From: Carcharhinus longimanus
Lineage: Eukaryota
Assembly (NCBI GenBank): GCA_030264375.1
Contig: JASCQW010000001.1
Coordinates: 147,568,229 to 147,632,228, forward strand
DNA length: 64,000 nucleotides
Direction: 5' to 3'
Part shown: piece after piece, positions 15,001 through 16,703 of the stretch
Numbering within the stretch: position 1 is the stretch's first letter
Layout: each line of letters starts with the position of its first letter
Program-made: the position numbers

Positions 15001-16703
15001 ACTTTGGTTACTATTAATAAAAATGCTTTTTGTTGGAAATCCACTACCCATCAGATCCATGTTGGCTCTAGAGGCCCACTGTGGATGAGAGCAGTTAACA
15101 TAGCTTAGACTAAGAATCAAACCTGGCAGGTTTCTGATTTCTATGGTATTGCTATTCATAGTCTTAAGCAGTTCAGCAAGCAAATTCTTCATTTTTCTAG
15201 ATCTCTAGATTTGTGTGCATTGAATTGAGATTTAAATATGTTATTCAGTTCTCCCTGAAATTATATTTGTTATTTAGCAGCTTCATGTAATGAATCTTAC
15301 TAATCTGTTTGATTCAGGGTTACCTATGAAAACAGAAATAGTGGACTAATTACCTATTACGTTACAAGGAGAAGAATCAAATAACAGATTAATGTTAGTA
15401 TAGTGTAAGCTTCTCATGTTCGCATTCCAACAAGGCAGGCCTCGTACAGGAGCAAGAAGAAGCATTTGACTGATTTTACTTTTACAACAGTTTATGTGTA
15501 AAATGTTACTGGCTGTATGTGTTTCTGGTAGTTAGAATTCTGTCTTTGATTAGCTGATTACACCTGAATTGGGAGTACTCAAAGCTGATATTGAAAATGC
15601 TCAAAATGGAAATTTGTTTCATTTCTTGTTACTGACAACATTCAGCTGAAGTTCCCAAGTAACAAACTTAAGATTCAACAATAACCATTTGTGATCTAAG
15701 CGTCTCCTAATTACGTATTTTTATCTGCAGGGCTTGCCGCTTAAAGAAAAAGGCTCAATATGAAGCTAATAAAGTAAAACTATGGGGTCTCAATACTGAA
15801 TATGGTAAGATAATAGTTTTGTATGTTTTGTTTAAGTTATTTGTACTTGGAATAAAACAGAAAATAAATGCTGAAAATACAAACTAGCAGCATCTGTAGT
15901 GAGAGAGAGAAACACAACTAACGGTTCAGGCCTCTGATGTTTGCCAGAATGAGAGCATTTAGAGATCAGTTCTTAAATCAGGTTTAAGTCAGGGGCTGAA
16001 GGAAGAACAGAATGGGATAGCCTATGATGGGCAAGGATCACCAACCTAAAATGTTAACACTGTTTCTCTCTTCTGATGTGGAGATGCCGGCGTCGGACTG
16101 GGGTAAACACAGTAAGAAGTCTGACGACATCAGGTTTAAGTCCAACCGATTTATTTGATAGTCAACTCGCAAGCTTTCGAGGTTTCCCTCTACATCAGGT
16201 GAATGAAGAGTTCTGGCCTCAGACAGAGCATATAAAGCACAGTTTACAGATTACTGATTAGAATGCAAATCTTTACACCTAACCTGCTGTTCAAGTCTTA
16301 AAGTGGCATTGTTAGCCACTTTAAGACTTGAACAGCAGATTAGGTGTAAAGATTCGCATTCTAATCACTAATCTGTAAACTGTCTGTGCTTTATATGCTC
16401 TGTCTGAAGCCAGAACTCTCCAGTCACCTGACGAAGGGACTAACCCCGAAAGCTAGTGAGTGTACTATCAAATAAATCGGTTGGACTGAAACCTGGTGTT
16501 GTCAGACTTTTTACTAGTACACAAAAGACAGTATTCTTAAGTGTTAACCTTGTGGTGAAATAAGCTGTTGACATTCACTGTCTCAGATTGGTTAAATTAG
16601 CAGAAGGTTGTTGGCACCTTTTGCAGCATAACTCAGCAGGAACCTTCTGCCTACTGGCTAATTTTTCAAAGTCTCCCCACCCACATTATAGTTGTGTATT
16701 TAA

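What the first reader, a model, noticed from the sequence alone, without database searches (positions are those of the whole stretch)
15850..16560. The CREBRF/DOCK7 breakpoint maps to a palindromic Penelope-derived element
Seen: the family B element starting at 15850 is cut at 16074 by the family A palindrome and does not resume after 16515 (expected roughly cacagatgctg...; found agtacacaaaagac). No flanking duplication is visible. Sister copies act as internal controls: 14512 (catttag on both sides), 61629 (cttgtcaatt on both sides), 63045 (caatacagtaag on both sides) and 53145 (host SINE resumes). Inference: the left and right flanks come from different loci joined within this element. That could be an assembler error at a hairpin repeat, or in vivo ectopic recombination or hairpin-induced breakage.
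Basis: partly seen in the sequence, partly recalled or inferred. Interest (0 to 1): 0.7.

Follow-up and report, generated by a model that had tools for sequence, protein, structure and literature searches.

The report
Likely assembly misjoin at Penelope palindrome
A 441-base hairpin-shaped copy of a common shark jumping element sits where parts of two unrelated genes (CREBRF and DOCK7) are joined, and the join is most likely an assembly error at this repeat, not a real chromosome rearrangement.

Summary
16075-16515 is a real palindrome. Its arms are 91.8% identical at aligned bases, and the left arm carries 36 extra bases. It has no flanking duplication, while three sister copies have duplications of 8, 10 and 12 bp. 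The old repeat it interrupts (15850-16074) does not visibly resume.

Its anatomy matches a Penelope-like retroelement insertion: an inverted 5'-truncated copy, a 30-40-bp tail on one end, a minimal hammerhead core, and duplications of variable length.

The window is a mosaic. It holds two CREBRF exons, then five DOCK7 exons, then two SETD7 exons, all on the + strand and each gene incomplete. CREBRF and DOCK7 lie on different chromosomes in 9 of 11 elasmobranch assemblies, and far apart in the other two.

So a junction exists between 15805 and 16757. The palindrome is the likeliest place for it, because it is the only high-copy repeat in that interval. This is not proven: the two arms diverge no more than in copies with intact duplications, and Penelope insertions without duplications are known.

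An assembly chimera is far more likely than an in vivo event, given the second discontinuity, the N runs in repeats, and a sister palindrome split by a 100-N run. Interest is low.

The parts
5466..5657 (+). CREBRF exon (codes ...KEKNKLASR)
   Evidence: tblastn: 100% identity over 64 aa to 4 of the 5 elasmobranch CREBRF proteins tried and 98.4% to the Callorhinchus one; single-exon search gave CREB3 regulatory factor
15731..15804 (+). CREBRF bZIP exon ([24 protein letters not shown]), AG before it and GT at 15805-15806; last CREBRF exon in the window
   Evidence: the following ~78 codons of CREBRF have no match in the window (best E 3.2)
15850..16074 (.). old, decayed copy of a hairpin-type repeat ('family B'); stops about 45 nt before the expected end of its 3' terminal repeat
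   Evidence: compared with the copy at 62490-62760
16075..16110 (-). 36-nt 'tail' of family A, present on the left arm only
   Evidence: all copies that reach this end share it; matches the 30-40-bp tail of Penelope-like elements (passages read)
16111..16307 (.). left arm of the palindrome
16308..16314 (.). 7-nt centre (loop), intact
16315..16515 (.). right arm of the palindrome; ends 36 nt short of the left arm
16428..16451 (+). hammerhead core words CTGACGA...GAAA in the right arm; the left arm has a decayed version (CTGATGT)
16516..16757 (.). right flank, no other copy in the window; ends in the acceptor site of the DOCK7 exon
16758..16889 (+). DOCK7 exon ([12 protein letters not shown]...SKIVHQ, DHR-2 lobe A), first DOCK7 exon in the window, about residue 1780 of ~2135
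   Evidence: PF06920, E 4.9e-12
14512..14655 (.). sister copy of family A, short palindrome, 8-nt duplication TCATTTAG
27721..28016 (.). half copy of family A, cut about 36 nt before the centre, 77 nt after the last DOCK7 exon of the window
53145..53235 (+). single tail-bearing arm of family A inside a SINE; host resumes; no duplication
61629..62322 (.). sister palindrome of family A, 10-nt duplication CTTGTCAATT; best hammerhead core at 61721-61747 (-)
63043..63271 (.). sister palindrome of the same subfamily, 12-nt duplication, with a 100-N run (63125-63224) in its centre

Best explanation
Family A is a high-copy, non-coding derivative of a Penelope-like retroelement. Each insertion is a 5'-truncated copy, mostly joined to an inverted copy of itself, with a ~36-nt tail on one end. 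That gives palindromes of 140-700 bp.

The window is not one locus. It is a mosaic of a CREBRF piece, a DOCK7 piece and a SETD7 piece. The CREBRF-to-DOCK7 switch lies between 15805 and 16757, most probably in or at the edge of the 441-bp palindrome.

The most likely cause is an assembler merging two different genomic copies of the same subfamily: one in a CREBRF intron (inserted in the old B repeat) and one in a DOCK7 intron. The result looks like a complete palindrome whose two flanks do not belong together, so it has no duplication and B does not resume.

Shown: the anatomy of the element, the gene mosaic, and the lack of a duplication. Inferred: the exact place of the switch, and that it arose in silico.
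For: Gene mosaic:
- CREBRF exons at 5466-5657 and 15731-15804.
- DOCK7 exons at 16758-16889, 23987-24121, 25535-25624, 26505-26747 and 27498-27644.
- SETD7 exons at about 57018-57212 and 59722-59925. All are on the + strand.
- The CREBRF C-terminus, DOCK7 upstream of the first exon found here (about residue 1780 of ~2135) and the last ~105 DOCK7 residues are absent.

Location in other assemblies:
- CREBRF and DOCK7 sit on contigs of different length in 9 of 11 elasmobranchs, and in 3 of 3 other vertebrates seen for both genes.
- In the two Scyliorhinus species they share a chromosome, but their protein accession numbers are 923-969 apart.

The palindrome as the likely place:
- It is the only high-copy repeat in the bracket and fills 46% of it. 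Family A has 6 copies in 64 kb.
- It has no duplication, against 3 sister copies that have one.

Signs of repeat-limited assembly:
- There are five N runs. Three of them have repeats at their edges, and one sits in the centre of a same-subfamily palindrome.
- PMC8557442 states that inverted Penelope structures often cause problems in whole-genome shotgun assemblies, especially short-read ones (passage read).
Against: Nothing inside the palindrome marks a switch.
- Arm identity at aligned bases is 91.8%. The duplication-bearing controls show 89.1% and 86.7%.
- The stretch next to the centre with few differences is seen in the control too (3 differences in 61785-61856).
- The three-way test gives 6 left-unique, 7 right-unique and 2 shared sites of 79, which fits either one old insertion or two merged copies.

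Insertions without a duplication exist in this family (53145) and in published Penelope elements (PMC3846280). A target deletion at insertion would also explain why B is missing its end.

Base composition does not change at 16 kb (38.6% against 39.7% G+C).

No reads, no second assembly and no shark DNA collection were on hand, so neither the place nor the in silico origin is tested directly.
Confidence: 0.6

Rival explanations
1. The join is artificial but lies outside the palindrome, in the unique 16516-16757 flank or in 15805-16074. It could come from a chimeric read or from a scaffold join closed without N. The palindrome is then one ordinary insertion that made no duplication and removed about 45 nt of its target.
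For: - Arm divergence is that of a single old insertion.
- Duplication-free insertions occur in this family and in the literature.
- 54% of the bracket lies outside the palindrome.
Against: - Repeat-driven misjoins need sequence shared by both loci, and only family A offers that here.
- 3 of the 4 other copies with both ends preserved have a duplication, and the fourth resumes its host exactly. None shows a target deletion.
Confidence: 0.22
2. The join is real. Either ectopic recombination between two family A copies, or hairpin/cruciform breakage and end joining, fused a CREBRF intron to a DOCK7 intron in this lineage or individual.
For: - The structure (complete element, unrelated flanks, no duplication) is what unequal recombination between two copies would leave.
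- The strand folds into a very stable hairpin.
- Both gene pieces point the same way, and their exons are intact with good splice sites.
Against: - It would truncate two conserved genes. The exons are still identical at protein level to those of other sharks, apart from split codons at exon edges; Carcharodon shows no internal difference.
- A second discontinuity (DOCK7 to SETD7) lies in the same 64 kb.
- Palindrome-mediated translocations in humans break at the centre with small deletions and favour long symmetric arms (PMC4940405, passages read). Here the centre is intact (66 of 69 inner pairs), the arms are 8% diverged, and the element is 42% G+C.
- Chromosome-scale assemblies of 11 elasmobranchs annotate CREBRF of ~630 aa and DOCK7 of more than 2100 aa.
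Confidence: 0.08
3. There is no junction of functional genes. The window is a real region made of recently duplicated gene fragments (a segmental-duplication mosaic).
For: Three partial genes lie in the same orientation within 64 kb.
Against: - The exons carry no stops or frameshifts and match other sharks' proteins.
- Introns of 0.7-10 kb are kept.
- Nothing in the window shows duplicate copies.
Confidence: 0.04

Closest known systems
Penelope-like element insertions with an inverted 5'-truncated copy and a 30-40-bp tail (Arkhipova and co-workers: PMC3846280, PMC8557442; tail mechanism in PMC11167929)
   Same: - Inverted repeat made of the element's terminal part.
- Extra 36 nt on one arm only. 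The papers give a 31-bp tail, an inverted pseudo-LTR 37 bp shorter, and a '30- to 40-bp extension'.
- Duplications of variable length (8, 10 and 12 nt here; 8-10 bp in the paper).
- A 5'-truncation series with a common end.
- Cases without a duplication.
- Trouble in short-read assemblies.
   Different: No reverse transcriptase or GIY-YIG reading frame is attached to any copy in the window. The copies are short, non-coding units of 91-694 bp. The whole palindrome, not just a flanking pair of repeats, is the inserted unit.
Minimal hammerhead ribozymes of metazoan Penelope-like elements (Cervera and de la Pena 2014, PMC4209133)
   Same: - Core words CUGANGA and GAAA.
- A 6-bp helix II with one bulged base at its 5' end.
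- No helix III.
- A palindromic AGCU right after GAAA.
   Different: Intact in only 2 of the 5 arms that span the box. No Rfam hammerhead family matched, even at E up to 10. Cleavage was not tested.
Repeat-induced chimeric contigs in draft assemblies
   Same: Two loci joined inside a high-copy repeat. The result is a complete-looking repeat with flanks that do not belong together. Gaps fall in other repeats of the same scaffold.
   Different: The join carries no N run, and no read-level evidence could be examined.
Palindrome-mediated translocations at human AT-rich palindromes, e.g. t(11;22) (PMC4940405)
   Same: A palindrome of several hundred bp at a junction between two chromosomes.
   Different: Those break at the centre with small deletions, and the palindromes are AT-rich and nearly symmetric. 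Here the centre is intact, the arms differ by 8% and by a 36-nt tail, and G+C is 42%.

Membership tests
Penelope-like element (PLE) insertion unit | Reading frame with reverse transcriptase and GIY-YIG endonuclease | tested here: not met
   Pfam scan of 271 of the 282 stop-to-stop frames of 60 aa or more. The only RVT_1 match is at 33502-33714 (24.5 bits, below the 29.6 cut-off), not next to any family A copy. No GIY-YIG match. Family A is therefore at most a non-autonomous or truncated derivative.
Penelope-like element (PLE) insertion unit | Inverted 5'-truncated copy abutting the element, giving an inverted repeat | tested here: met
   palindromes at 14512, 16075, 61629 and 63043
Penelope-like element (PLE) insertion unit | 30-40-bp tail present at one end only | tested here: met
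   36 nt at 16075-16110 on the left arm only. The same tail is seen in the 14512, 53145, 61629 and 63043 copies. Definition from passages read.
Penelope-like element (PLE) insertion unit | Minimal hammerhead motif in the terminal repeat | tested here: inconclusive
   Core with a 6-bp helix II and a bulged base at 61721-61747 (-), the only such match in the window. The relaxed core gives 5 matches against 2.3 expected, 2 of them at homologous places in family A arms. It is decayed in 3 of the 5 arms that span the box. No Rfam hammerhead hit.
Penelope-like element (PLE) insertion unit | Short target-site duplication of variable length | tested here: not met
   Met in 3 sister copies (8, 10 and 12 nt). 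Not met in this copy (longest shared word 4 nt) or in 53145.
Repeat-induced assembly chimera | The two flanks map to different places in independent assemblies | tested here: met
   Tested at gene level only. CREBRF and DOCK7 are on contigs of different length in 9 of 11 elasmobranchs, and 923-969 accession numbers apart in the other 2. The flanking DNA itself could not be compared.
Repeat-induced assembly chimera | Switch point inside sequence shared by both loci | tested here: inconclusive
   Family A is the only repeat in the bracket with close relatives, but no change point is seen in it.
Repeat-induced assembly chimera | No reads or read pairs span the join | not testable with these tools
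   No read data available.
Palindrome-mediated translocation (human AT-rich palindrome type) | Break at the palindrome centre with a small deletion | tested here: not met
   Centre intact: 7-nt loop flanked by 66 of 69 paired bases. Definition from PMC4940405.
Palindrome-mediated translocation (human AT-rich palindrome type) | AT-rich, nearly symmetric arms | tested here: not met
   42.4% G+C. 16 mismatches and 8 gap columns in 203 columns, plus a 36-nt one-sided tail.
Palindrome-mediated translocation (human AT-rich palindrome type) | Reciprocal derivative with the matching junction | not testable with these tools
   No genome of the source animal available.

The most novel reading that the evidence does not exclude
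The join is real. Two copies of a Penelope-derived palindrome on different chromosomes recombined, or broke as hairpins and were rejoined, in the germ line of this shark lineage. The result is an in-frame-oriented CREBRF-DOCK7 hybrid locus. This would be a vertebrate example of translocation mediated by a retroelement palindrome.
Probability: 0.06. Interest if true: 0.6.

Novelty: not a real feature. Interest (0 to 1): 0.15.

Why it matters
If this is an artefact, as seems likely, it has practical value. It flags a chimeric stretch that would otherwise produce a false CREBRF-DOCK7 gene model and false synteny. It also points to Penelope-type palindromes, at about one per 10 kb here, as places where shark draft assemblies break or misjoin. 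If the join were real, it would show that retroelement palindromes can drive translocations in a vertebrate germ line, so far documented mainly for human AT-rich palindromes.

Tried and rejected
1. Arm divergence as a sign of a hybrid palindrome. There is no excess over the duplication-bearing controls. The low-difference stretch next to the centre is also seen in the control copy.
2. Three-way comparison of the left arm, the right arm and the same-subfamily copy at 63043. The result is star-like and uninformative.
3. Looking for the missing end of B in the right flank, using the copy's own 5' terminal repeat and the 62490 copy. Scores are at chance level, and the power is low.
4. Base composition step at the junction. 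None at 16 kb. There is a modest rise after 28 kb that repeats may explain.
5. Rfam hammerhead families. No hit at gathering score in the whole window, nor at E up to 1 (15700-16800) or E up to 10 (61500-62400). The microRNA-type matches are generic hairpin matches far below the gathering scores.
6. The tblastn read-through of 15805-15866, which resembles the next CREBRF exon. It needs two gaps, and its best part is coded by the B repeat's terminal words, so I took it as chance.
7. Placing SETD7 on shark chromosomes. The representative search gave 229 hits, the best only 72% identical and all unnamed. None was used, so the SETD7 location stays unchecked.
8. No collection of shark or other eukaryotic DNA was on hand.

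Full report
**What is at the coordinates**

Reading 15400-17100 and the repeat finder confirm a palindrome at 16075-16515. The outer arms are 16111-16242 and 16384-16515 (132 nt, 86% complementary). The inner arms are 16239-16307 and 16315-16383 (69 nt, 96%), with 7 nt between them.

Aligned arm to arm there are 179 matches, 16 mismatches and 8 gap columns, which is 91.8% identity at aligned bases. The left arm carries 36 extra bases (16075-16110) that the right arm lacks. As single-stranded DNA the stretch folds into one long hairpin of -181.8 kcal/mol; 0 of 100 shuffles fold as well.

**The family**

A search with the left half finds five more copies in the window, which I read:
- 14512-14655: a short palindrome.
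- 27721-28016: one arm only, cut about 36 nt before the centre.
- 53145-53235: one tail-bearing arm inside a SINE.
- 61629-62322: a 694-bp palindrome.
- 63043-63271: a palindrome of the same subfamily, with a 100-N run in its centre.

Three copies have flanking duplications: TCATTTAG (8 nt), CTTGTCAATT (10 nt) and CAATACAGTAAG (12 nt). In 4797 random flank pairs from the window, shared words that long occur with frequency 0.018, 0.0023 and 0.0004.

The 53145 copy has no duplication, but its host SINE resumes exactly, as shown by alignment with four other SINE copies. The copy under study shares only a 4-nt word between its flanks, below the 5 nt that was commonest in the random pairs.

**Is it Penelope-derived?**

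The features tested point that way.
- *Literature description.* PMC3846280 (passages) describes the typical Penelope structure as pseudo-LTRs plus an adjacent inverted one, 37 bp shorter. It also describes a 31-bp tail on one of them and 8-10-bp duplications, and it reports cases without any duplication. PMC8557442 (passages) speaks of an inverted 5'-truncated copy, a 30-40-bp tail at one end, and resulting problems in whole-genome shotgun assemblies, 'especially short read-based'. PMC11167929 (passages) ties the tail to two internal start sites of reverse transcription.
- *Match to family A.* Family A shows the inverted arrangement, the one-sided 36-nt tail, duplications of variable length, and a truncation series with a common end.
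- *Hammerhead motif.* A strict scan required CTGANGA, a helix II of at least 4 bp, then GAAA. It finds one match in the whole window on both strands, and that match is in a family A arm (61721-61747, minus strand). It has a 6-bp helix II and one bulged base at its 5' end. This is the shape PMC4209133 describes for metazoan Penelope minimal hammerheads (passages).
- *Relaxed core.* The looser pattern gives 5 matches against 2.3 expected (9 of 100 shuffles reach 5). Two of the five sit at homologous places in family A arms, one of them at 16428-16451 in the right arm studied here. The box is decayed in 3 of the 5 arms that span it.
- *Negative results.* Rfam finds no hammerhead at gathering score in the window, nor at E up to 1 or E up to 10 around two copies. 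No reverse transcriptase or GIY-YIG frame adjoins any copy. I scanned 271 of the 282 frames of 60 aa or more. The 11 left out to fit the limit of 150 per call mostly lie over the SINE at 52.9-53.4 kb or overlap frames that were scanned.

So family A works like, and very probably derives from, a Penelope-like element. As it stands it is a short non-coding unit. PMC4350176 (passages) reports Penelope-like elements in all 23 vertebrate genomes it studied.

**Family B**

The 5' part of 15850-16074 resembles both terminal repeats of the element at 62490-62760 (score 18.5; shuffle mean 10.9, maximum 17.5, 0 of 200 reach it). Plain BLAST finds no relative, so the copy is old, roughly 60-65% like the others.

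Its 3' part (...AAATGTTAACACTGTTTCTCTCTTCT) lines up weakly with the start of the 3' terminal repeat; 18 and 44 of 500 shuffles reach those scores. It stops about 45 nt before the expected end. The right flank matches the expected remainder at chance level, with 298 and 187 of 500 shuffles reaching the score. 'Does not resume' therefore fits, but a 45-nt remainder of so decayed a copy could escape detection.

**The gene map shows a mosaic**

I searched single exons one by one. A joined spliced model was not made or searched.
- *CREBRF.* The exon at 5490-5657 returns CREB3 regulatory factor. Against five named elasmobranch CREBRF proteins, tblastn finds exons only at 5466-5657 and 15731-15804. 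The remaining ~78 residues (DHLLYVINSIKQEI... to the end) have no match anywhere in the window (best E 3.2).
- *DOCK7.* The exon at 26493-26753 returns DOCK7. DOCK7 exons lie at 16758-16889, 23987-24121, 25535-25624, 26505-26747 and 27498-27644. Nothing of DOCK7 upstream of that first exon (about residue 1780 of ~2135) is present, and the last ~105 residues are missing too.
- *SETD7.* Two exons follow on the same strand, at about 57018-57212 (Protein Data Bank match to SET7/9, E 1.9e-25) and at 59722-59925 (PF22648, E 1.7e-30).

All exon edges read carry AG and GT. So there are three partial genes, each in correct internal order, with at least two discontinuities. N runs could hide a small exon, but not all the missing ones.

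**Where the genes lie in other assemblies**

The protein tables give the length of the contig that holds each protein, which serves as a chromosome label.

| Species | CREBRF contig (Mb) | DOCK7 contig (Mb) |
|---|---|---|
| Hemiscyllium ocellatum | 87.8 | 116.5 |
| Stegostoma tigrinum | 79.4 | 104.1 |
| Rhincodon typus | 73.8 | 81.1 |
| Chiloscyllium punctatum | 95.7 | 135.9 |
| Chiloscyllium plagiosum | 82.3 | 94.7 |
| Carcharodon carcharias | 179.0 | 123.5 |
| Cetorhinus maximus | 144.6 | 105.8 |
| Heterodontus francisci | 122.1 | 137.2 |
| Narcine bancroftii | 125.4 | 257.7 |

That makes 9 of the 11 elasmobranchs for which both genes were seen.

In Scyliorhinus canicula (244.3 Mb) and S. 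torazame (323.5 Mb) both genes are on the same contig. Their protein accession numbers are 969 and 923 apart, whereas the CREBRF neighbour SEC20 is 2 away. Reading that as 'far apart' rests on my assumption that these numbers follow gene order.

In the older S. torazame assembly the genes are on separate scaffolds of 273,534 and 190,805 bp. Three other vertebrates seen for both genes (Polypterus, Microcaecilia, Pogona) also differ, 3 of 3.

The window's five DOCK7 exons show no internal amino-acid difference from Carcharodon. They show one each from Cetorhinus, S. canicula, S. torazame, Heterodontus, Rhincodon and Hemiscyllium and both Chiloscyllium species, and more from Stegostoma and the two batoids. 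That is too coarse to name the species. I do not take the contig for human: shark repeats lie on both sides of the junction.

**Where the switch is**

The junction must lie between the CREBRF donor site (15805) and the DOCK7 acceptor site (16757), a span of 953 nt. The palindrome fills 46% of it and B fills 24%.

For the palindrome:
- It is the only sequence in the bracket with close relatives elsewhere, so it is the only place where a repeat-driven join, in silico or in vivo, can form.
- It lacks a duplication, while three of the four other copies with both ends preserved have one.
- B does not resume.

Against a firm placement:
- The arms are no more diverged than in duplication-bearing controls (91.8% against 89.1% and 86.7%).
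- The well-kept stretch beside the centre is equally well kept in the control (3 differences in 61785-61856).
- In a three-way comparison with the 63043 copy, the left arm has 6 private sites, the right arm 7, and the two share 2, out of 79. That fits one old insertion as well as two merged copies.
- Composition does not shift at 16 kb.

I put about three chances in four on the switch being in or at the edge of the palindrome.

**Artefact or biology**

I favour an assembly chimera for these reasons.
- The same 64 kb holds a second mid-gene discontinuity (DOCK7 to SETD7).
- The window has five N runs of 10-992 nt. Three of them have repeats at their edges, and one lies in the centre of a same-subfamily palindrome.
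- The exons are as conserved as functional genes.
- CREBRF of ~630 aa and DOCK7 of more than 2100 aa are annotated in all 11 chromosome-scale elasmobranch assemblies.
- The literature names exactly this kind of element as a source of short-read assembly trouble.

A palindrome-mediated translocation of the human type does not fit. Those break at the centre with small deletions in AT-rich, symmetric palindromes (PMC4940405, passages). Here the centre is intact, G+C is 42.4%, and the arms are unequal. Unequal recombination between two copies cannot be excluded from the sequence alone, because it would leave the same structure as an assembler merging them.

**Limits**

The SETD7 location in sharks stayed unchecked, because the only remaining search gave unnamed hits of at most 72% identity that I did not use. 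Supplementary files of the cited papers were not opened. Each paper is cited from the passages returned by the named calls, not from a full reading.

**Verdict**

The element is an ordinary member of a known kind: a Penelope-type inverted insertion. The junction is real in the file but most likely not in the animal. Interest is low.

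Noticed in passing
27645-57017: Second discontinuity. The DOCK7 exons stop at 27644 and the last ~105 residues are never found. SETD7 exons follow on the same strand at about 57018-57212 and 59722-59925.
   Followed up: partly
27721-28016: A half copy of family A starts 77 nt after the last DOCK7 exon and is cut about 36 nt before the palindrome centre. It may mark the second junction. The N run at 44964-45349 is another candidate.
   Followed up: partly
63043-63271: A family A palindrome of the same subfamily, with a clean 12-nt duplication, has a 100-N run (63125-63224) exactly in its centre. 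The assembly failed inside this kind of element at least once.
   Followed up: partly
15977-15990 and 16129-16142: An exact 14-nt direct repeat, ATCAGGTTTAAGTC, is shared by the body of the B repeat and the left arm of the palindrome. The neighbouring bases are unrelated. It may be chance or a trace of an older insertion.
   Followed up: no
15805-15866: Read through the donor site, the frame gives [10 protein letters not shown], which resembles the start of the next CREBRF exon (LLYVINSIKQEI) only with two gaps. The IKQKI part is coded by the terminal words of the B repeat. I took it as chance.
   Followed up: yes
16600-16665: A small inverted repeat (GCAGAAGGTT ... AACCTTCTGC) lies in the otherwise unique right flank, seen when reading the sequence.
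   Followed up: no
32500-34500: Decayed non-LTR retrotransposon frames (RVT_1 at 33502-33714, below the Pfam cut-off), unrelated to family A.
   Followed up: no
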